A DNA stretch of 64,000 bases from Eledone cirrhosa (lineage: Eukaryota), in contig OZ024740.1 of assembly GCA_964016885.1 (NCBI GenBank), positions 11,160,001 through 11,224,000 on the forward strand, given 5' to 3'. This document shows positions 46,582-64,000 of the stretch, in pieces (position 1 is the stretch's first letter; the number at the start of each line of letters is the position of its first letter). The notes beneath the pieces were generated by a model that searched no databases, had not been told where the DNA came from, and saw only the letters and a program-made list of their open reading frames with translations. The position numbers were made by a program, and so were the translations under genes.

Positions 46582-46843
46582 TATATATATATATATATAT
46601 ATATACATACATATATATATATATACACATACATATATATATATATATATACACATACATATATATATATATATACACATACATATATATATATACACAT
46701 ATATATATACATATATATGTAGGAGGTGAGTTTTATTGTAGTACAATAAAGCAATACAGATATCGGATAAGAAGCACTCTACAGTTTGTAGGACTGGAGT
46801 ATACATAATATAAGATCAAAAGATGGTTAAAGGAGTTCCATAT

Positions 46844-46912
46844 ATTTTATTATGCGCATTTCAAAAACAAACATCATCAAGCAATAATATTTGTGTTTTC
46901 ATCAGATAAAAC
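46844..46912 (-). ncRNA. Mirror copy of the same hammerhead ribozyme motif on the minus strand
   Basis: Reverse complement of 47033-47101 within the palindrome. This copy keeps a longer downstream tail reaching about 46719. Confidence 0.76.
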
Positions 46913-47032
46913 AGGAGAACATGATATGAAGGCTAAAAAACACTTGTGGATAGTGCAGTTTTAAATCAACATATGTTGATTTAAAACTGCACTATCCACA
47001 AGTGTTTTTTAGCCTTCATATCATGTTCTCCT

Positions 47033-47101
47033 GTTTTATCTGATGAAAACACAAATATTATTGCTTGATGATGTTTGTTTTTGAAATGCGCATAATAAAA
47101 T
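47033..47101 (+). ncRNA. Type I hammerhead ribozyme motif (Penelope/retrozyme type)
   Basis: Stem I GTTTTAT(47033-39)/ATAAAAT(47095-101); core CTGATGA 47040-46; 16-bp stem II 47047-82 with three G-U pairs and one mismatch; GAAA 47083-86; palindromic stem III TGCGCA; UH site TA 47093-94. Confidence 0.78.
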
Positions 47102-47154
47102 ATATGGAACTCCTGTAACCATCTTTTGATCTTATATTATATATACATATATAC

Positions 47155-47606: not shown

Positions 47607-47944
47607 TCATCATCATCATCATTTGACGTCCACTTTTCCCTGCTTGCAAGGGTGGGACGGGAACTGATTCTGGCTTGATTTCTACAGCTGGATGCCCTTC
47701 CTAACACCAACCTCATTTACAGTGAGTGCTGGGTGCTTTTTTACCGTGGCACCTCCACGACCACTTTTCAGTGGAATGATAGGGACCCCAGTCCCTATCA
47801 TCTCATTTCTACAGCTGAGTAAACTGGAGCAATGTGAAATAAAGTGTCTTGCTCAAGGAAACAACACATCACCCGGTCTGAGAATTGAACTCACAACCCT
47901 TCGATTGCAAGGCCAATGCTCTAACCACTAAGCCATGTGCCTCC
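47607..47944 (-). mobile_element. tRNA-derived CORE-type SINE with RTE-like 3' tail and (GAT)n end
   Basis: On the minus strand: A box TGGCTTAGTGG (47935-47925), B box GAGTTCAATTC (47892-47882), and CCTTGAGCAAGACACTT...CAGTTTACTCAGCTGTAGAAATG resembling the MIR CORE domain. The tail is similar to the RTE 3' UTR at 55451-55640. Flanked by (TA)n on both sides. Confidence 0.85.
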
Positions 47945-48063
47945 ATATACATACATATATACATACATATATATATACATACATATATATATAAATATAT
48001 ATATACATACATATATATATAAATATATATATACATACATATATATATACATACATATATATA

Positions 48064-48667
48064 TGATGGCTGCCAACTCGTTTTCGAGTACGGCCACTAC
48101 TTTATATCCATGTAGGAGAACCCCTACCGATGCGCTGAGTGTGACTTTTTAGTCCAGCCAGCGACTTGAAAACTCTGGTACAAACACTACACCTGTGACA
48201 ATTATTGACACATAGTGCTGGGCCCATGGTACCATGTGACGACAAGTGCAAAGAGATCTCCAGAGATAAAGCAATGCCTGTGCCGTGAAGCTTTTATAGT
48301 GAGCAAAGGCACTGCACAAAGCCAGTCCCACTCTCTTAACTGAGATGATATTTACCAAAAAGAAGAACAAGTCAACATCATTGGATACCATCAGAGTTAC
48401 AGGTGTTATATCAGAGTTTTCCTTCTCCTAGAATTCTGCCTTGACAAAGGCTAAGGGGTCATCTCTCCCGGTGATTTTGGATGGCCATTGACTCTTAAGA
48501 GCTCCTTTGCCCTTTGACAGGTTTTGTTTTTAGTCCTGCAGGATGTCCAAAGTCACCCTCCTCACCAAGAAACCTTGGTGGGGTTGCCAGTTTAGTCGCC
48601 AACGACCCGACCATGAGACAGGTTGTTCTGGGATACATGTTACCAGTAGCACCAAGTGGTGACCTGA

Positions 48668-48668
<1 letters not shown>
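48064..48668 (-). mobile_element. Probable degenerate retroelement fragment (possibly an RTE-type 5' UTR) between (TA)n tracts
   Basis: GC-richer island with GTTTTCCTTCTCCTAG...CAAAGGCTAAG, which I recall from RTE 5' regions (unverified). Hairpin CACCAAG-AAAC-CTTGGTG near 48563-48580. No credible ORF. Confidence 0.35.
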
Positions 48669-48921
<253 letters not shown>

Positions 48922-50298
48922 TCCCTTGCCGTGAATTACCGTCCAATCTCACTCACCTCTCATATCATTAAGGTATTTGAGCGAGTGGTGAGATCGCGAA
49001 TGACCCACTTCCTTGAGAGTAACAATATGCTGAACTCCAACCAGCATGGATTCCGTAATGGAAGGGATTGCCTGACGCAACTACTGCATCACTTTGATGA
49101 CATTTTGAGAGCTTTGGGAGAGGGTTCCAACACTGATGTTATCTACCTTGATTTCAGCAAGGCCTTTGACAGGGTTGATCATAACATTCTACTGAGAAAG
49201 CTGTCCAATATTGGTGTCACTGGAAAGCTGCTGCAGTGGATCAAGAGCTTCCTGTCAAACAGAACCCAACATGTTGTAGTTGAGGGAGTCAAATCAAGCC
49301 CAGCCAAAGTCAGTAGTGGAGTCCCACAAGGCACTGTGTTGGGCCCACTTCTCTTCATCATCTATATTAATGACATCACTGACATCATCAAACACAGCAA
49401 CATTAAAATTTTCGCTGATGATTCCAAGCTCCAAAAGGTCATCAATGGCGTGGAGGACCGGATAAGCCTTCAGTCAGACCTACTGGCTGTTACCCAATGG
49501 GCAGAAAAGAACAACATGTTACTGAACGAAGACAAATTCGAACTGATCCACTTTGGAAAAGAGGATGCTCTGAAACTCCCGTACTCCCTTCCCTCCGGGG
49601 AAACTCTCGTGGCATCTAACAACATCAGAGACTTGGGAGTAACCGTGGACAGCAACATAAGCTGGACCACGCATATAAGCAGCAAAGTTGACATGGCCCG
49701 CAGAATGTGTTCCTGGATCCTCAGAACCTTCCAGTCGAGAGATTCCCGCACCATTATCCTTCTCTTCTCTACTTTCGCCCGACCACACCTTGAATACTGT
49801 TGTCCACTGTGGTCTCCCCACACGAAACAAAGTATCATGAAACTTGAAGCTCCTCAAAGGGCAATCACGAAAAAGATAGATGGCATGTCAGACCTTGACT
49901 ACTGGGGTCGATTGGAAAACCTGAAACTTTACTCACTCCAACGTCGCCGTGAGCGTTATATTATCTGCATGATGTGGAAAATGTTCCATCATCACTGCCC
50001 AAATGATGTTGGCATCGCCTTCAAGATACACCCAAGGCTTGGGCCCCGTGCTATCCGTCCCATTCAAAAATCTAAATCGCAACTCATAACAACAATACGG
50101 CACAATTATTTCACCTCAATCGGCCCTGCTCTCTTCAACATCACACCAGGACACGTCAAAACAGAAACTGACCACACAAAATTCAAGAAGTCTTTGGACA
50201 AATTCCTCCAAGTAATCCCGGACAAACCACCCACACCCGGATATGTCTCCGCAAACAGTAATTCTCTTCTCGAATGGGCCATGGTGCCCAAATCCTGA
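48922..50298 (+). pseudogene. Reverse transcriptase and C-terminal region of LINE ORF2 (endonuclease lost, frame otherwise open)
   Basis: Motifs [65 protein letters not shown]. Confidence 0.93.
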
Positions 50299-50373
50299 AT
50301 TGAAAGACTTCGCCAGGTGGTGCTATTAAGTTAGACATGGCCTGGGCCAATACTGGCCAAAACATTTCAAAGT
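48922..50373 (+). mobile_element. 5'-truncated CR1-group non-LTR retrotransposon (family A)
   Basis: RT reading frame followed by a short 3' UTR with a GGCCA/TGGCC stem-loop. Bounded by (TA)n at both ends. Confidence 0.9.
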
Positions 50374-50465
<92 letters not shown>

Positions 50466-50488
50466 CATATATTACCAACAAACACCAA

Positions 50489-51451
50489 ATGAAAAGTACA
50501 CACCTAAATGCCACCCACACTATACCCCAAAATACCAACTCTTCTAATATAAAGTATAGTAACTCTCAAAAAACTACCCATCATATAACTCTAATAAATG
50601 TTTATAATAAAACTCCTAATAAACAAGATAAAACACCTAAATCTACAAATCTAACTAAAAATGTGCGTGGTGAGATCATTAACATTAATCCTCCTAGTAA
50701 ACATCACGATACAACCTATAAAAATAATAAACAACATAGAAACCGTAATAGACGGGTTACTTGGTATAATGCTCCATTTAATTTACAAATTAAGGATAAT
50801 ACTGCTAAAAAATTTTTTTATATCCTAGAGAAAAACTTCCCGCCAAACCACAAATACCATCAAATCTTAAATAGGTCTACAGTTAAATTCTCATACTCAA
50901 CAACAAATAACATAAAACAAAATATAAGTGCCTATAATGCATATAAATGTAAGAATACCATAAGTATACCACCAATACATCAAACTAACCATAATATCTC
51001 CTCAAATACAGAATTAACGAAAGGTTGTAACTGTAGAAACAAAGCAAACTGCCCATTAAAAGGAAATTGTCTTGTTAACAACATAGTTTATAAATGTAAT
51101 GTTAAAACTAAAGATTCTATTTGCTCATATATAGGAGCTACTTCTAACAATTTTAAGGCAAGGTTTAATACCCACAAACATAGTTTTAAAAATGCTGCAC
51201 TGGCTAATACAACATCTCTAGCAGAAAAAATCAATAGTTATAAAAATAAGAATATAGAATATGATTTGACCTGGAGTGTGCTCAAAAGAGCCACCCCTTA
51301 TCAAAATAATAGAAATGAATGTAGATTATGTTCCCAAGAACTATTTGAAATAATGAAATCTAAGGATATCCTATTAAATAAACGACAGGAATTAATTATA
51401 TCGTGTAATCATAAACTAAGAAAAACATTTAAATATTATAAACCTAATTAA
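50489..51451 (+). CDS. Penelope-like element (Neptune-like) C-terminal ORF: Cys-rich linker plus GIY-YIG endonuclease, RT missing
   Basis: Motifs [33 protein letters not shown]...SYIGAT...[24 protein letters not shown]...CNH. The listed start Met is probably incidental to 5' truncation. Confidence 0.85.
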
Positions 51452-52350
51452 TAACATTATTTTAGAATTTAATATATAATTTAATTTAAATGTTAGTTAA
51501 CCTATAAATTTAATTTAATTAAAATTCTACTACAGATGAGATTATAAAATATTGTGTAATCATAAATTGTGAAAAACTTTTAAATATCACTAATATATAC
51601 TTCGTAAATTAATTTATAGATTAATTTTAATTTATTTAACCTTTTATTAAAATTCCTTTACAGATAAAATATAACAAAATATCGTGTATTCAATGACAGA
51701 GAAATAATTTTTAGTATTATAGACCTAATTAATGTACATTTTAGAAATATATTTATAATTTGGTTTTAAATTTGGTCAACCTAAAAATTTAATTTAATTG
51801 GCTTAAAATTAATATCCTAATACAGATGGATTGCAGAGTGTCATGTAATCATAGACTGAGATAGGTTTTGGATCTATACCTAGTTAATATATTCTTTGCA
51901 ATTTTTGAAACAATATGTATATGTATGTATATATATGTATATGTATATATATATATGTATATATATATATGTATATGTATATGTGTATGTATTAATTTTA
52001 ATTTTCTGTTTACCTATAATTATATTCTACTATAGATAAAATACAATTTCTGTTTTAATTATTATAAACCTAATTAACATATGCTATAGAAATTAATATA
52101 TAATTTTTAATTTAGTTAACCTATAATTTATATTCTACTACCGATGTAATACTTTATTTGTTTTTTCCCTATTACTAAATTCATTTCCTAATATTGATAC
52201 CATAACGTTAATAATTTTAATTTAGTTATACTATTATTAATACTCTACTACTATTTAACTTCAAAATTCCGCTTCAAATATTATAAACCTAAGTAGTATA
52301 CACCTTAGAAATCAATATATTAACTATCCTTAATTTAGTTAACCTATGGT
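51400..52350 (+). repeat. Diverged AT-rich tandem repeats (about 130-160 bp) overlapping the end of the GIY-YIG ORF
   Basis: TCGTGTAATCATAAA-like motif near 51401, 51552, 51682, 51841. TATAAACCTAATTAA and GTTAACCTATA...TTCTACTACAGAT motifs recur to about 52350. Confidence 0.7.
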
Positions 52351-52529
52351 TAATGGTATAATTATATTGAAATGCATAATTTTGCCTTCTTTCTTACATT
52401 TCCTAATACTGAAACTATGTAAACACATATTATGATCTAAATGCAGATTAATATTCTATGTTTCTTGAAACCTATATTTACTATAATCCCCCCCCCCCCT
52501 ACTATTATTATTTGTATTTGTAAGCGTGG

Positions 52530-54780
<2,251 letters not shown>

Positions 54781-55008
54781 ATAAACATACAGAGACATTA
54801 GCCTTGAATTTTTGTATTTACATACATCTTTTTGGCAGGCGTATGCATGTGAACATATATCTTTATGCATATCTGTGAACGAAGTTACTTATATGCATAT
54901 ATACACACACCTAACTGTATAAACTTTTTGTATTTTCATTGGTCAATTTGAACTCTGTTCCCAAACAGACCTGTAATTTTGAATTGTTGTTATTATCAAT
55001 AAATATAT

Positions 55009-55173
55009 TTCATTATTTCTGAAGACGGCATATATATGTGTTTGGTATGTATATTTAATTTTGATAGTTTGTATAATTTTGTATAATTTTGTATAATTTT
55101 GTACATAGATCTGTTGAATATGCATGCCAATTCTAATACATATATATCCTAGAAACGATCGTTAAATAATGAA
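55009..55173 (+). ncRNA. Type I hammerhead ribozyme motif with a very long stem II
   Basis: Stem I TTCATTATTT(55009-18)/AAATAATGAA(55164-73), 10 perfect bp; CTGAAGA 55019-25; 126-nt stem II region; GAAA 55152-55; palindromic stem III CGATCG; GUU cleavage triplet ending at 55163. Confidence 0.85.
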
Positions 55174-55370
55174 CTTTTTTTGCTTAGTATAAGGAACTGT
55201 TTCATTGTTTTATTCATTATTTTTTTAATATTTTATCTTGACTCTGTTTTCCGTTTATCTTTCACCGAAAGTGATTTTTCATTGCATCTCTTCTTTCCAT
55301 GATATCCGGATTACATTGAGTTCTTCATACGGATTGGACACTACCGTAAACTCTTGGTAGATTTATCTAC

Positions 55371-55452
<82 letters not shown>

Positions 55453-55961: not shown

Positions 55962-58900
55962 TTAGGTAAGGCGGGTCTTCTCTATTACAGAGTACCGCCA
56001 AAGGTCTCGGTCCAGTGACATTGTCTTGGAGAGGTGTAAGCGTGTGAGGTCGGAATTTATCAGCTCGTCCCATGTTTTTCTGGGTCTGCCTACTCTGTGG
56101 CTACCGTCTATCTTTATTGCCCTGCACTTTGTTATACAGCTGTCGTCTTTCATGCGCATCACGTGACCGTACCAACGTAGCCTTCTCTCGAGTAAATAAC
56201 ATCTGATCCCTCTTATTTCTAATTTTTTCCTTAGTTTGTTTATGCTTTGCCGTTCACGTATATTACTATTGCACATCCAGCGGAGCATGCAAGCTTCGTT
56301 CCTCTCTAGTCTGCGTATATCCTCTGCACACAATGCCCAGGTCTCACTGCCATGCAGCATTGCTGTTCGTATGCAGGCATCGTATAACCTGCCTTTCATT
56401 TTTAGGGAGAACCCTCTAGCGGCTAATAGTGGTATAAGCTCTCTGAACTTTTTCCATCCAGTTCTGACTCTAGCTACTGTACTTTCAGAGCACCCTCCCC
56501 CACTGCTGATTTTGTCACCCAGGTAACGGAAGCTGTCCACTATTTCTATAGAACCCTCTGCGCAGTTGAAGGAGCTAGTATTTTGTGGGCACTTGCTGCT
56601 ACTTATTGCACCAGAGCACCGGCCACATGTAAAATCTATGTTCTTAGTTAGCTTACCTGTGATCCCACTACATCTTTTATGCACCCATACTTTGCATTTG
56701 GGACATAAAATGGAGTTTCTACCTACGCCTTTCCTACACACTGAGCATGGCCATTTCCCAGATGGGACTGCCGCCATATTTTCTTTCCTACAAACTAGAA
56801 CTTTAGTCTTAGCCAGGTTAATTTTAAGGCCTTTTGATTCTAGGCCGTGCTTCCATGTTTGGAATTTCTTCTCTAGTTCGGTCATTGATTCAGCTATGAG
56901 CGTTAGATCATCTGCGTATAGGAGTTCCCATGGGCAGCCGGTCTTGAACTCCTCTGTTATAGCCTGAAGGGCAATAATAAATAGTAGGGGGCTAAGAACA
57001 GAGCCCTGATGGACACCAACTTTTACGCTAAACTCTTCACTATATTCGTTGTTAATTCTAAGCTTACTGACTGTTTCTTTATACATCGCTTGTATAGCTC
57101 TCACAAGCCATTCGTCAACACCTAGTTTTCTAAGAGACCACCAGATAATGGAACGGGGGACTCTGTCGAAGGCTTTCTCCAAGTCGACGAAAGCTAAGTA
57201 TAGGGGTTTACTTTTAGCTAGGTACTTCTCCTGTAGTTGTCGTACAATGAAAAGAGCGTCTGTGGTACTTTTGCCTGACACAAATCCGAACTGCATTTCA
57301 TCTAGATCAATTCTCTCTCTGATTAGTTGCGCTATTACTTTTTCCGTGACCTTCATGACCTGGTCGATTAATTTAATGCCTCTATAGTTACTTCTATCTA
57401 GGGCATCTCCTTTTCCCTTATAGCAGTTAACGATGATGCTGCTACGCCAGTCCTTCGGAACAACCCCATTCTGTACGACTTGGTTAACTATCCGGGTGAC
57501 CATGGTGTGTCCCACCGAACCAGATGCCTTCAGCATCTCAGCAACTATTTCCGAAGGACCAGCCGCCTTACCCGTCTTCATATCTTTGATTGCCTTGCTT
57601 ATTGTACTACCCTGGACTAACACTGCTGGTCCCTCTATTGGGTTGATGTGGGGGAGACTGTCTTTCTCCCATTTGTTCTCCTCATTTAGAAGCCTTTCGT
57701 AGTGACACTTCCAAGCTACCTTCTTATCAGCGTCGGTGATGGCAAGTATGCCATCATCGTTAAGCACACACTTCTCCCCGACAATATCACGGTTTTCCTT
57801 GACACATTGCCTGGCAATCCTGAACACCTCACGTTTTTGGTCCTCACGTTGTAGAACATGCTTCAACTTTCTTTCCTCTGCTTCCCTTCTTGCGAAGTAC
57901 ACTTGTCTCCTAGCTTCCCTCCTGGCCACCTGATAGTCTTCTCTACTTCCCCCATCCCGCCATGCTTTCCAAGCCTGCTTTTTGGCCTTAATTGACTCCT
58001 CCACCTTACTGTTCCACCACCATGTTACTCTCCTCCTACCTACAGGCCTGCTCCAGCCACAGACTTCGTCTGCCGCCATCAGCAGGTTTGCTCTCAGGAA
58101 TTCCCACTGTTCCTCTATATTATACGACTCTAATTGCTCTTCCTTACTGTCGCGAGCGTCAAGTAATATGCTTTGAAATTTATTTCTGGCTATGGGGTCC
58201 TTTAGCTTCCATATTTTTCTCCTGAGGATAGTCCTCTTCCGCTGTCTAGTACGTTTCGTCCTGACTATGAGGTCGCTAATTATCAGTCTATGTTGGGAGG
58301 TGAATTCTTCATGGGGGAGGGATTTAGTGTTAACAACAGACACTCTGTCACGTCTTCTGGTAAGGATATAATCTACCTGGCTTGTGTGTTCCCCCGATCT
58401 ATAGGTGATCAAGTGATTGTCTCGTTTTTTGAAGTTAGTGTTACAGATAGATAAGTTATTTGCGTCGCAGAATTCCAGGATTCTGGAGCCTTCCTCATTT
58501 CTAGTACCGAACCCATAGCCTCCATGGATTCCGTCATAGCCGTCACAATGCTGTCCAACGTGACCATTTAGGTCGCCTGCAATAACTATATAGTCACTTT
58601 CAGATATTTGGGAGGTAGCGAGCATCAGTGTCTCGTAGAATCTGTCTTTTATAGCACCGGGCAGTCCGGATTGTGGTGCGTACGCAGATATTACTGTCAC
58701 CGTAGTTTTATTGAGGACAAGTCTTATTTTAATTATTCTGTCGTTCACTCTATTTACGTCTATTATCTTATCTGCCCACTTTTCTGCTACCATGATTCCT
58801 ACCCCACCCAACCCATTGTCATTTCCCACCCAGAAAAGCTTATAGCATCGTTCTTTACCCCGATAAATCTAGCCGACCCTCCCCTCCACCTGGTCTCTTG

Positions 58901-59790: not shown

Positions 59791-61734
59791 CTCTTTTACT
59801 CTTTTATACTCTTTTACCTGTTTAAGCCATCCGGCTGAGGCCATGCTGGGGCACCGCCCTTGTTGCTACACATTTGATCTCCAGCCTGTATAGGTTGGCC
59901 ACTGGTGTAGGAGGGAGTTTGTTGCTGCTGCCCTTAGGTTTCCCTCGTGTCTTGCTGTGGGCTCATCCGGGATCCTGGATAACAAGGTGTCGAGATGTTT
60001 CTTAAAGACATCCACCTCCACGTCATGCAAGTCTCGCAGATGCCTCGGCAGCCTGTTGAAGAGTTGAGGGCCCTTGAATCCCAGGCTATTGCAATAACTG
60101 CTCCTTATTCTAGATGTGGAAGACGGGACCTTTGGCACCACACAGTGACGTCCTGTTCGACGGTTGGTCCAGCTCCCAATGCCAAAGTTTGGTGCTAGTC
60201 CCTCCAGGATTTTCCACATGTAGATCACTGCGTATCTCTCCCGTCTTCGCTCCAAGGAGTAGAGGTTCACTTCCTTTAGCCTCTCCCAGTAGCTTGTCTC
60301 CCTCATCTTGGCAATCCTCTTGGTGTAGCTTCGCTGGATTGCCTCAAGCTCCGTGGTTAGTTTGACACTATGGGGTGACCACAGCTGGGAGCAGTAGTCC
60401 AGGCGGCTTAGGACAAAAGTCCTCCACAGTGTCAACATGGTGTCTCGATCTCTTGTAAGGAAAGTCCTCAAGATCCAGCCAGCGAATCGTCTACATGTTG
60501 TCGCCACCTTCATGATGTGTGAAGAAAAAGATGCATCATCGCTCATGTCTATGCCCAGGTCTCGTATCGATTTTGACACGGGGATATCGGTCCCTCCTGG
60601 TCCTGTGTAGCTGTGTTCCGCTATATTTGTGCTTGTGTTTGCAGGTTTGTATTGTAGGGCTTGGAATTTGCCAGCATTAAACTGCATGTTGTTTTCTTCC
60701 GCCCATCTGTATATGGCATCCAGATCCTGCTGTAAGAGGGCAGCGTCAGCCGGGTTTTTGATTGCCTGTGCTACCTTAGTGTCATCAGCATAGCTAGTGA
60801 GGGATGTTGTTGCATGCATCACAGAGGGCATGTCCGAGAGAGCCACCAAAAACAGTAGTGGTCCCAGGACTGTCCCCTGGGGCACCCCACTTGTTATCGG
60901 TGTTTCCCTCGAGAGGGCCCCATTTGCTGCGACTGCCTGGCTTCTGTCCCTTAGGAAGCCATGCAGCCACTCACCTACTTTTCCAGTTATGCCGAGTCCG
61001 TATAGTTTGTGACATATCATTACGTGGTCGACCTTGTCAAAGGCCTTCGCAAAGTCCAGATATATCACGTCTACATGTGAGCTGTCTAGTAGTTGTCTCA
61101 GTACCCAGTCGTAGTGATGTAGCAGCTGTGTAAGGCAGCTTCTTCCTGGGCGGAAGCCATGTTGCGTGCTAGTCAGGCGGTCATTTTCTTCGAGGAAAGT
61201 GATTAGTTTCTTTCTGACGACTCGCTCCATGACCTTACTGATATGCGACGTCAGGGAGACTGGCCTATAGTTCTTGGCCTCCGCTCTACCTCCTTTATGG
61301 ATAGGGCATATTGTGCCTTCTTTCAGCTCCCTGGGTAGTACACCGCTAGCCAAGGAGCTTCTGAAGAGCATCTTCAGTGGAGTTGCTAAGGCCCGCTTAC
61401 ATATTTTTAGGAGAACTGCTGGGAATCCATCAGGTCCAGCAGCCGAGTCTGTTCTAATTTCATCAATGGCGTACACCACATCCTCCTCCATTATGTCTAT
61501 GTGGTTGATGGTTGCCATTTCTTGATGTAGTGTTGTGGCATCAAAGAACTCCTCTGGCTTCGTTATTTGCATGTGCCTCAGTGGACATGTGAAGACACTT
61601 TTGTACTGTTCGTTCAGTATTTCACATATCTCTTGGGGATTTTCGGTTAATGAACCGTCCGTGTGGAAGAGTGGTCCAATCTTGCAGTGTACTGAGGCAG
61701 TTTCTTTTGCAAATTTAAAGAAGGCCTTAGGGTT
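59791..61734 (-). mobile_element. 5'-truncated CR1-group LINE (family B); RT frame open over 59866-61734
   Basis: Motifs [66 protein letters not shown]. The 3' UTR GGCGGTGCCCCAGCATGGCC ends in (TAAAAGAG)-like repeats. Flanked by (TA)n on both sides. Confidence 0.92.
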
Positions 61735-62214
<480 letters not shown>

Positions 62215-62215
62215 A

Positions 62216-64000
62216 AGCTTGGAAGTGTCTCTATGAAAGGCTTCTAAATGAGGAGAACAAATGGGAGAAAGACAGTCTCCCCCACATCGACCCAATAGAG
62301 GGACCAGCAGTGTTAGTCCAGGGTAGTACAATAAGCAAGGCAATCAAAGATATGAAGACGGGTAAGGCGGCTGGTCCTTCGGAAATAGTTGCTGAGATGC
62401 TGAAGGCATCTGGTTCGGTGGGACACACCATGGTCACCCGGATAGTTAACCAAGTCGTACAGAATGGGGTTGTTCCGAAGGACTGGCGTAGCAGCATCAT
62501 CGTTAACTGCTATAAGGGAAAAGGAGATGCCCTAGATAGGAGTAACTATAGAGGCATTAAATTAATCGACCAGGTCATGAAGGTCACGGAAAAAGTAATA
62601 GCGCAACTAATCAGAGAGAGAATTGATCTAGATGAAATGCAGTTCGGATTTGTGTCAGGCAAAAGTACCACAGACGCTCTTTTCATTGTATGACAACTAC
62701 AGGAGAAGTACCTAGCTAAAAGTAAACCCCTATACTTAGCTTTCGTCGACTTGGAGAAAGCCTTCGACAGAGTCCCCCGTTCCATTATCTGGTGGTCTCT
62801 TAGAAAACTAGGTGTTGACGAATGGCTTGTGAGAGCTATACAAGCCATGTATAAAGAAACAGTCAGTAAGGTTAGAATTAACAACGAATATAGTGAAGAG
62901 TTTAGCGTAAAAGTTGGTGTCCATCAGGGCTCTGTTCTTAGCCCCCTACTATTTATTATTGCCCTTCAGGCTATAATAGAGGAGTTCAAGACCGGCTGCC
63001 CATGGGAACTCCTATACGCAGATGATCTAACGCTCATAGCTGAATCAATAACCGAACTAGAGAAGAAATTCCAAACATGGAAGCACGGCCTAGAATCAAA
63101 AGGCCTTAAAATTAACCTGGCTAAGACTAAAGTTCTAGTTTGTAGGAAAGAAAATATGGCGGCAGTCCCATCGGGGAAATGGCCATGCTCAGTGTGTAGG
63201 AAAGGCGTAGGTAGAAACTCCATTTTATGTCCCAAATGCAAAGTATGGGTGCATAAAAGATGTAGTGGGATCACAGGCAAGCTAACTAAGAACATAGATT
63301 TTACATGCGGCCGGTGCTCTGGTGCAATAAGTAGCAGCAAGTGCCCACAAAATACTAGCTCCTTCAACTGCGCAGAGGGTTCTATAGAAATAGTGGACAG
63401 CTTCCGTTACCTGGGTGACAAAATCAGCAGTGGGGGAGGGTGCTCTGAAAGTACAGTAGCTAGAGTCAGAACTGGATGGAAAAAGTTCAGAGAGCTTATA
63501 CCACTATTAGCCGCTAGAGGGTTCTCCCTAAAAATGAAAGGCAGGTTATACGATGCCTGCATACGAACAGCAATGCTGCATGGCAGTGAGACCAGGGCAT
63601 TGTGTGCAGAGGATATACGCAGACTAGAGAGGAACGAAGCTTGCATGCTCCGCTGGATGTGCAATAGTAATATACGTGAACGGCAAAGCATAAACAAACT
63701 AAGGAAAAAATTAGAAATAAGAGGGATCAGATGTTATTTACTCGAGAGAAGGCTACGTTGGTACGGTCACGTGATGCGCATGAAAGACGACAGCTGTATA
63801 ACAAAGTGCAGGGCAATAAAGATAGACGGTAGCCACGGAGTAGGCAGACCCAGAAAAACATGGGACGAGCTGATAAATTCCGACCTCACACGCTTACACC
63901 TCTCCAAGACAATGTCACTGGACCAAGACCTTTGGCGGTACTCAGTAATAGAGAAGACCTGCCTTACCTAAATACAAAGTAAAAACCTACTACAGTCAGT
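62216..64000 (+). mobile_element. 5'-truncated RTE LINE (copy 2), nearly identical to copy 1 but inverted; premature stop at 62691-62693
   Basis: Colinear with the reverse complement of 55933-57717. CGA>TGA splits ORFs 62310-62693 and 62751-63971. The 3' UTR runs off the window. Confidence 0.95.

What the first reader, a model, noticed from the sequence alone, without database searches (positions are those of the whole stretch)
55009..55173. Hammerhead motif with a 126-nt, microsatellite-like, G-U-rich stem II
Seen: full core with a 10-bp stem I. Stem II pairs ATATATATGTGTT with AATACATATATAT and TGGTATGTATATTTAAT with GTTGAATATGCATGCCA, where every non-Watson-Crick position is G-U, which works only for plus-strand RNA. 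The loop holds a 10-bp GTATAATTTT triplication. Typical Penelope hammerheads have a very short stem II, so length-limited searches would likely miss this form. With the 47-kb motif it suggests a family of long-stem-II ribozymes.
Basis: partly seen in the sequence, partly recalled or inferred. Interest (0 to 1): 0.78.

Follow-up and report, generated by a model that had tools for sequence, protein, structure and literature searches.

The report
Giant-stem hammerhead in a Penelope retrotransposon
This is the hammerhead-ribozyme motif at the end repeat of a Penelope-type jumping gene present in thousands of copies, with one stem several times longer than in its published relatives; it likely cuts the element's RNA only rarely or under control, because the genomic copies run straight through the predicted cut site.

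Summary
The motif is real and as described: 10-bp stem I, CUGAAGA and GAAAC-GAUC-GUU core, 126-nt stem II that folds only on the plus strand (z -7.7 against -1.0). It is the pLTR hammerhead of a young Hydra-clade Penelope-like element (5,647 exact matches to a 36-mer beside it); the window holds a 5'-truncated copy (50469 to about 55371). The family's stem II is 104-116 nt; the third 10-mer is private to this copy. Published Hydra-clade stems are 12-26 nt. Recurrent subfamily changes keep the plus-strand pairing (12 of 14; singletons 5 of 17), but two-sided covariation is nearly absent. Copy ends add a mechanism: 46 of 100 copies begin near 55012, inside stem I, often with an extra G (a likely cap trace), none begins at the cut (55164), and 3' ends fall at two sites 135 nt apart. 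The start site trims stem I, and two downstream decoys are predicted to capture its 3' strand. Best reading: a weak, dimer- or protein-dependent ribozyme that mostly spares the capped RNA. Cleavage and expression are untested. The 47-kb motif is a different family (36-nt stem II). New variant of a known kind.

The parts
50469..55371 (+). 5'-truncated copy of a Hydra-clade Penelope-like element, inserted in (TA)n; 3' end uncertain by about 2 bases
   Evidence: blastn to the tandem full unit in L031: 50469-52687 at 98.9% and 52686-55415 at 88.7%; TA repeats on both sides
50469..51451 (+). 3' part of the element's ORF: CxCX5C linker and GIY-YIG-type endonuclease with CxxC and CxH around the conserved E and N
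   Evidence: same frame in 810-aa ORFs of L039, L040, L042; no Pfam match
51452..55011 (+). Long AT- and microsatellite-rich 3' untranslated part of the element
   Evidence: shared with other copies
54998..55003 (+). AATAAA, possible poly(A) signal 9 bases before the 5'-end hot spot
   Evidence: kept in most subfamily B copies shown and seen before the hammerheads of L142 and L051; function not tested
55009..55018 (+). Stem I, 5' strand
55012..55012 (+). Inferred transcription start (A of TCATT), inside stem I
   Evidence: mode of 5' ends in 100 copies; 403 copies have a non-C base before it against 74 with a non-A base one step on; 98 of the 403 have G
55019..55025 (+). Core C3-A9, CUGAAGA
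   Evidence: no change seen in 5 or more insertion events
55026..55151 (+). Stem II, 126 nt here, 104-116 nt in the family: C.A mismatch, R-Y, G-C, C.C, then helices of 13 and 17 pairs and a variable top
55071..55100 (+). 10-mer x3 in the top of stem II (x2 in subfamily A, x1 in subfamily B)
55152..55163 (+). Core G12-A14, 2-bp stem III with palindromic loop (ACGATCGT), U16.1 and N17; predicted cut after 55163
   Evidence: self-duplex -10.0 kcal/mol; N17 is U or A by subfamily
55164..55173 (+). Stem I, 3' strand
55200..55210 (+). Decoy 1: complement of the stem I 3' strand, closing a predicted hairpin just behind the cut
55213..55222 (+). Decoy 2: exact second copy of the stem I 5' strand
   Evidence: 13 of 2000 shuffles hold the 10-mer
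55236..55371 (+). Tail between the two 3' ends of copies (inferred reverse-transcription start sites), about 135 nt
   Evidence: 56 of 100 copies end at +71..+76 and 40 of 100 at +206..+212 from the cut

Best explanation
It is a type I hammerhead motif in the pseudo-LTR of a young Hydra-clade Penelope-like retrotransposon, with a 104-126-nt stem II whose plus-strand pairing is kept across subfamilies, and it likely works as a weak, conditional ribozyme that needs a dimer or the element's protein and leaves most template RNA uncut. Shown by sequence: the motif, its place 140 nt inside the repeat and about 360 nt before the next ORF in tandem units, two 3' ends behind it, a 5'-end pile-up inside stem I, none at the cut. 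Inferred: RNA polymerase II starts at 55012 and caps the RNA; this trims stem I from 10 to 7 pairs; the protein starts reverse transcription 73 and about 207 nt behind the cut and copies through the intact motif to the cap, which gives the common short inverted doublets. Predicted by folding only: stem I forms briefly in read-through RNA from an upstream unit and is then displaced by two downstream decoys, so any cutting would fall mainly on nascent read-through transcripts. The long stem probably grew by slippage or fold-back and was kept paired because an unpaired insert would disrupt the core.
For: Element context: tandem unit with ORF in L031, Hydra motifs. Copy number 5,647. Strand asymmetry. 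Stem II variants seen in 5 or more of 155 insertion events keep pairing in 12 of 14 cases, singletons in 5 of 17, expectation 0.29 from the tail's spectrum. Pair 55027/55150 takes G-U 24, A-U 12, G-C 3 of 40, which fixes the register; C.A or U.U at this place also occurs in published PLE hammerheads and C.A in three other families here. Core, stems I and III: 0 recurrent changes in 36 positions apart from N17 U/A. Copy ends; G before 55012 in 98 of 403 against 5 of 74 one base on, Fisher p 3.5e-4, none of 41 inspected a simple point mutant. Stem I probability 0.01-0.03 from the start site, 0.22-0.59 in read-through RNA ending 10 nt behind the cut, 0.01 or less once 73 nt are made. Precedent: protein-assisted cleavage and uncut RNA as main template in the anole PLE (PMC11167929); low activity as dimers (PMC4209133).
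Against: No cleavage data of any kind. No pair has a two-sided change against its commonest form, and the covariation score barely exceeds shuffles (9 of 500); variants seen in 2-4 events keep pairing in only 4 of 9; subfamily changes are few, related events, so the binomial P (2e-5) overstates the case. Core invariance alone is not significant (P 0.058). ViennaRNA prefers a shifted register at the base of stem II (P 0.97) and a misfold pairing the two core strands. About half of the 41 inspected G junctions can be explained by the other arm or a local duplication (5 flagged by script, 9 palindromic, several more by eye). Decoy 1 carries a recurrent breaking change in subfamily B. Absence of copies at the cut is also what an inactive motif, or fast decay of cut RNA, would give.
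Confidence: 0.6

Rival explanations
1. The motif is an efficient ribozyme that cuts after 55163 in vivo; cut RNAs are translated (cap-independent, freed of a -42 kcal/mol cap-proximal hairpin and four upstream AUGs) or circularised, and leave no trace among insertions because only uncut RNA is copied.
For: Intact core and N17 limited to U, A (one C); hairpin and upstream AUGs at 25, 36, 99, 103 of a 502-nt leader; self-cleavage drives cap-independent translation in viral 5' UTRs (PMC13725137, abstract and passages). A few copies do start at the cut: 3 of 30 inspected and 12 stem-I junctions genome-wide.
Against: 0 of 100 copies start at the cut although a 73-nt or 207-nt product would have been sampled; the 12 junctions are explained by microhomology between the two stem I strands; 2-bp stem III, C.A at 10.1/11.1 and the decoys all point to low activity; six more upstream AUGs remain behind the cut.
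Confidence: 0.17
2. The core no longer cuts; the structure is kept as a protein-binding or 5'-leader hairpin of the element's RNA, and the hammerhead letters are a recent relic.
For: No 5' ends at the cut; active fold lies 4.5-9.2 kcal/mol above the minimum from the start site; in the anole PLE, core mutants did not impair insertion in vitro (PMC11167929); core invariance not significant alone.
Against: Both subfamilies keep every core base while differing at many stem II and tail positions (19 and 15 recurrent changes), and the one recurrent change near the core is the tolerated N17 U/A.
Confidence: 0.13
3. The 5'-end pile-up at 55012 marks poly(A)-site cleavage rather than a start site: AATAAA at 54998, a CA at 55011-55012 and the G/U-rich 5' arm of stem II act as the element's 3'-end signal, which would be one reason for the G/U content.
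For: Spacing and sequence; AATAAA also precedes the hammerheads of two other families.
Against: Cleavage after CA would leave products that start one base later (74 against 403 copies) and gives no extra G; four doublets among the 98 G copies have G on both arms by place, e.g. L030 and L087. Both roles could coexist.
Confidence: 0.07
4. The G-U pairs are fossils of A-to-I editing of the hairpin, fixed by retrotransposition, not of selection.
For: Most recurrent stem changes are A/G opposite U, mostly after a 5' U. ADAR's neighbour preference is recalled, not from a call.
Against: Only 1 of 17 singleton stem changes is A to G; recurrent C-to-U, U-to-C and G-to-A changes also keep pairing. Editing would in any case need the hairpin to form.
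Confidence: 0.03

Closest known systems
Hydra-clade PLE hammerheads (Craig et al. 2021, PMC8557442; section 11, passages, supplement part 2 and alignment passages seen)
   Same: Type I motif on the sense strand near the 3' end; short stem III with palindromic loop; mismatch at the base of stem II is common (U.U in many rows); (TA)n targets; protein with RWR, DKT, CxCX5C, CxxC and CxH, alignable by eye to Hydra-1_Obim.
   Different: Stem II with loop 104-126 nt against 12-26 nt; unit about 6.3 kb against under 3 kb; tail about 135 nt against the 30-40 bp given for PLEs; three motifs of this family (two protein, one DNA) have 0 occurrences in that supplement, and Hydra-1_oBim has another hammerhead.
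min-HHRs of metazoan PLEs (Cervera and de la Pena 2014, PMC4209133; parts 1-2 of 4 read)
   Same: pLTR location, palindromic positions 15.2-16.2, predicted dimer, opposite-strand pairs 100-700 bp apart, low expected activity.
   Different: Their 'large' helix II is 6-8 bp with G10.1-C11.1 and a 5' bulge; here about 30 bp with C.A at the base.
PAc hammerhead of the anole Poseidon element (Frangieh et al. 2024, PMC11167929; parts 1-2 of 4 read)
   Same: Two internal reverse-transcription start sites that define the tail; uncut RNA as template; no ends at the cut.
   Different: There the ORF starts in stem II and the start sites lie in the ORF; here both lie in the 5' leader, 150 nt or more before the ATG. 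Protein-assisted cleavage is shown there, untested here.
Drosophila virilis Penelope pLTR (Schostak et al. 2008, PMC2377424, passages; Cervera 2014)
   Same: Internal promoter with an initiator in the pLTR; stem I differs between RNA forms.
   Different: There splicing alters stem I; here the inferred start site does.

Membership tests
Type I hammerhead ribozyme | Core CUGANGA, GAAA, NUH | tested here: met
   CUGAAGA, GAAAC, GUU or GUA
Type I hammerhead ribozyme | Three stems, open at stem I | tested here: met
   10-bp stem I, long stem II, 2-bp stem III
Type I hammerhead ribozyme | Pair 10.1-11.1 (usually G-C) | tested here: inconclusive
   C.A mismatch; not canonical, but listed for PLE-X1_cBra and as U.U in Hydra rows; U.U reported as tolerated (PMC3088659 passages)
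Type I hammerhead ribozyme | Covariation of stems | tested here: inconclusive
   One-sided compatible changes abundant, none two-sided against the commonest pair
Type I hammerhead ribozyme | Match to an Rfam hammerhead model | tested here: not met
   0 of 119 matches at E <= 5; the 36-nt motif at 47 kb is missed too, so this reflects model limits
Type I hammerhead ribozyme | Self-cleavage after H17 | not testable with these tools
   No assay; no RNA run listed
PLE pLTR hammerhead | Lies in the pLTR, sense strand, flanking an RT-EN ORF in tandem | tested here: met
   L031: motif, ORF, motif, 6,946 bases apart including a 0.6-kb unrelated insert
PLE pLTR hammerhead | Short stem III with palindrome for dimer formation | tested here: met
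   ACGATCGT self-duplex; a whole-RNA dimer fold did not give the double hammerhead
Penelope-like element | Inverted 5'-truncated partner and optional tail | tested here: met
Hydra clade | RWK-type motif, DKT, CxCX5C linker, CxxC and CxH around E and N, C-terminal EN | tested here: met
   RVRWRA 35, SDKTGN 114, CRNKANC with preceding CN in most copies, ECRLCSQE 767, [13 protein letters not shown] 786
Hydra clade | No CCHH motif in the endonuclease | tested here: met
   No CxxC between the two halves of the GIY-YIG motif, read by eye against the supplement alignment
Hydra clade | Insertion into (TA)n | tested here: met
Hydra clade | Grouping in an RT tree | not tested
   No reference proteins were held as sequences; no tree built
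Non-LTR retrozyme (short tandem repeats with type I HHR) | Tandem monomers of about 300 bp, no ORF | tested here: not met
   Tandem units are about 6.3 kb with an ORF; short copies are inverted doublets or singles

The most novel reading that the evidence does not exclude
A position-sensing ribozyme switch: the same pLTR hammerhead is disabled when it sits at the capped 5' end of the element's mRNA (start site inside stem I) and active for a short co-transcriptional window in read-through RNA before downstream decoys close it, while its 100-nt-plus stem II serves as a double-stranded platform for dimerisation or protein binding. It would be the longest stem II among the PLE hammerheads compared here and the first direct account of what a PLE hammerhead decides in vivo.
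Probability: 0.2. Interest if true: 0.78.

Novelty: new variant of a known kind. Interest (0 to 1): 0.52.

Why it matters
What Penelope hammerheads do in vivo is still open (PMC8557442 calls it unclear). This family offers thousands of young copies whose ends record the template RNA: where it started, that it was likely capped, that it was uncut, and where copying began. It also shows that hammerheads with stems over 100 nt exist in high copy number and escape Rfam and short descriptors, so elements scored as hammerhead-less or 'half core' may deserve a second search. The switch model makes simple, ordinary in vitro tests possible.

Tried and rejected
Expression: no RNA holder listed; contigs of three runs of unknown kind were laid and show only that both arms of stem II occur in contigs of a second organism label, with no contig spanning the motif. 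Pile-up of 5' ends at the cut: looked promising (557 copies without T at N17, against 27 at the next base) but 26 of 30 inspected were subfamily B with A17, 1 a C17 variant, 3 junctions. Pfam gave no match for the ORF. One search used a structure line shifted by one column and is void; one search is the corrected count, on 40 of 88 distinct motif sequences chosen by hand for frequency and subfamily spread. One family with the 47-kb motif: rejected. ADAR origin of the G-U pairs: not supported by singletons. An intron in the 5' leader: plausible from upstream AUGs, untestable without RNA. Lunse et al. 2017 and Arkhipova et al. 2017 are not held; I know them only through citing papers, and they or the supplements of PMC4209133, which I did not open, could list long-stem variants. 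Searches for prior reports found none of a stem II of this size in a PLE. Earlier findings of the scan: none. The host was not identified; 'octopus' in my searches was a guess from the repeat landscape.

Full report
Observation. The window reads, from 55009: a 10-base strand, CTGAAGA, 126 bases, GAAACGATCGTT, and the exact complement of the first strand. The plus strand folds far better than its shuffles (z -7.72, 0 of 200), the minus strand does not (z -0.97). Rfam gives no hammerhead match in the window at E <= 5.

What it belongs to. A DNA search of the own genome (3.0 Gb, 1,796 contigs) gave 992 candidates, 40 scored, at 93-100% identity for the long matches; a 36-mer just behind the motif has 5,647 exact matches. 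L031 holds a tandem: motif, 5' leader, ORF, long microsatellite-rich tail, motif again. [quoted passage not shown] The window's copy runs from 50469 to about 55371 and is 5'-truncated; the frame at 50330-51451 is its endonuclease end.

Stem II in the family. The third 10-mer is private to this copy. Subfamily A has 115-116 nt, subfamily B 104 nt and GUA at the cut. The 26 Hydra-clade rows of File S2 have 12-26 nt between the core strands and the longest row of the table 54 nt (hand count). Other hammerhead-like families in the fetched loci have 12-51 nt; the 47-kb motif is one of them, 36 nt, with its own copies and ends.

Is the long stem under constraint? Among 219 copies in 155 insertion events, changes in 27 stem II pairs that recur in 5 or more events keep a Watson-Crick or G-U pair in 12 of 14 cases; those in 2-4 events in 4 of 9; singletons, which arise after insertion, in 5 of 17; the tail's mutation spectrum predicts 0.29. 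On 40 of 88 distinct sequences 96.2% of cells pair, with 17 further pair types, but no pair changes on both sides against its commonest form and shuffles come close. So the pattern is one-sided, plus-strand-specific conservation, not formal covariation, and the events are related by descent. The pair 55027/55150 occurs as G-U, A-U and G-C, which supports a register with C10.1.A11.1 at the base; ViennaRNA prefers a shifted GG/CC register that subfamily B's A would break. C.A at this place is listed for PLE-X1_cBra and U.U for many Hydra rows; U.U is described as the best tolerated mismatch (PMC3088659 passages). Core, stem I and stem III show no recurrent change in 36 positions apart from N17, against 19 in stem II and 15 in 190 tail bases (P 0.058).

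What the copy ends say. I mapped the first 100 listed matches, chosen by place only. 3' ends: 56 at +71..+76 from the cut (55236), 40 at +206..+212 (about 55371), 2 run on into the ORF, 2 are over-extended alignments. By analogy with the anole element (PMC11167929) these are two internal reverse-transcription starts, with a tail of about 135 nt. 5' ends: 46 at -159..-134 with the mode at -142 (55012, the A of TCATT; values beyond it are partly AT-rich overshoot), 12 scattered through stem II, 13 further upstream, 29 beyond the fetched stretch, 0 at +1. Genome-wide, for one subfamily A pattern, 850 copies have the templated C before 55012, 403 do not, and 98 of these have G; one base on, 74 deviate and 5 have G (p 3.5e-4). 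None of 41 inspected G copies is a point mutant of a read-through copy, but about half can be explained by the opposite arm, a palindromic junction or a local duplication, so the support for a cap is moderate. [quoted passage not shown] Copies that start at the cut are rare: 3 of 30 in a set enriched for them and 12 stem-I junctions genome-wide, which microhomology explains.

Folding in context. From 55012 stem I has 7 pairs and forms with probability 0.01-0.03; with 60 upstream bases and an end 10 nt behind the cut, 0.22-0.59; once 45-73 nt are made, 0.03 or less. Two sequences behind the cut take the 3' strand: 55200-55210 and an exact copy of the 5' strand at 55213-55222; 18 of 2,000 shuffles bind as well and 13 hold the 10-mer. 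Decoy 1 is broken in subfamily B, where decoy 2 takes over. These are equilibrium predictions for an AU-rich RNA.

Mechanism. Shown: motif, element, strand, copy ends. Inferred: capped transcript from 55012, two copying starts, uncut template. Predicted: low intrinsic activity (2-bp stem III, C.A base), dependence on a dimer or protein as for other PLE hammerheads (PMC4209133; PMC11167929; review PMC6765202 passages), and a bias toward nascent read-through RNA. Rivals are efficient cleavage serving translation or circles (PMC13725137), a dead core, a poly(A) site, and editing.

Novelty. Hammerheads in Hydra-clade pLTRs are known. A stem II of 104-126 nt, a start site inside stem I with a cap trace in genomic copies, and downstream decoys were not found in print; two key papers are not held and the supplements of PMC4209133 were not opened. 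Papers seen: PMC4209133 and PMC11167929 parts 1-2 of 4; PMC8557442 passages, section 11, supplement part 2 and search passages; PMC13725137 abstract and passages; PMC6765202, PMC7229834, PMC3287187, PMC2377424, PMC3088659, PMC10085705 passages only. Verdict: new variant of a known kind, interest 0.52.

Noticed in passing
window 1-45766: 29-bp satellite array (about 1,500 units) with rows recurring at 8,245-base steps, suggesting a higher-order repeat.
   Followed up: no
window 46800-47140: Inverted doublet of another PLE-like family, hammerheads at 46905 (-) and 47040 (+), 36-nt stem II, two 3' ends into (TA)n; the MIR529 and mir-586 Rfam matches at 46924-47021 are just its palindromic junction.
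   Followed up: partly
L041 (three copies about 570 bases apart), L013, L123: Hammerhead family with 50-51-nt stem II, C.A at its base and GAAACTAATTAGTT, in short tandem spacing.
   Followed up: no
L142, L051, L028, L070, L038: Further hammerhead families with 26-49-nt stem II; in L142 and L051 AATAAA and TCATT precede the core as in this family.
   Followed up: partly
window 47944-48816 and L031 5733-6340: A 0.6-kb repeat found both in the window and inserted in the 3' part of the L031 unit.
   Followed up: no
window 48930-50298 (+), 55962-58868 (-), 59866-62343 (-), 62217-63971 (+): LINE reverse-transcriptase fragments; two look CR1-like and two RTE-like (labels recalled, not from a call), the last two RTE-like copies nearly identical and inverted.
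   Followed up: no
L035 4645-6213: Inverted pair of a different PLE clade's endonuclease end with its own 18-nt stem II hammerhead.
   Followed up: no
L031 1907-2058: 5' leader beyond the pLTR holds four more upstream AUGs and a TTTAG 35 bases before the ATG; a spliced intron, as in other PLEs, is possible.
   Followed up: partly
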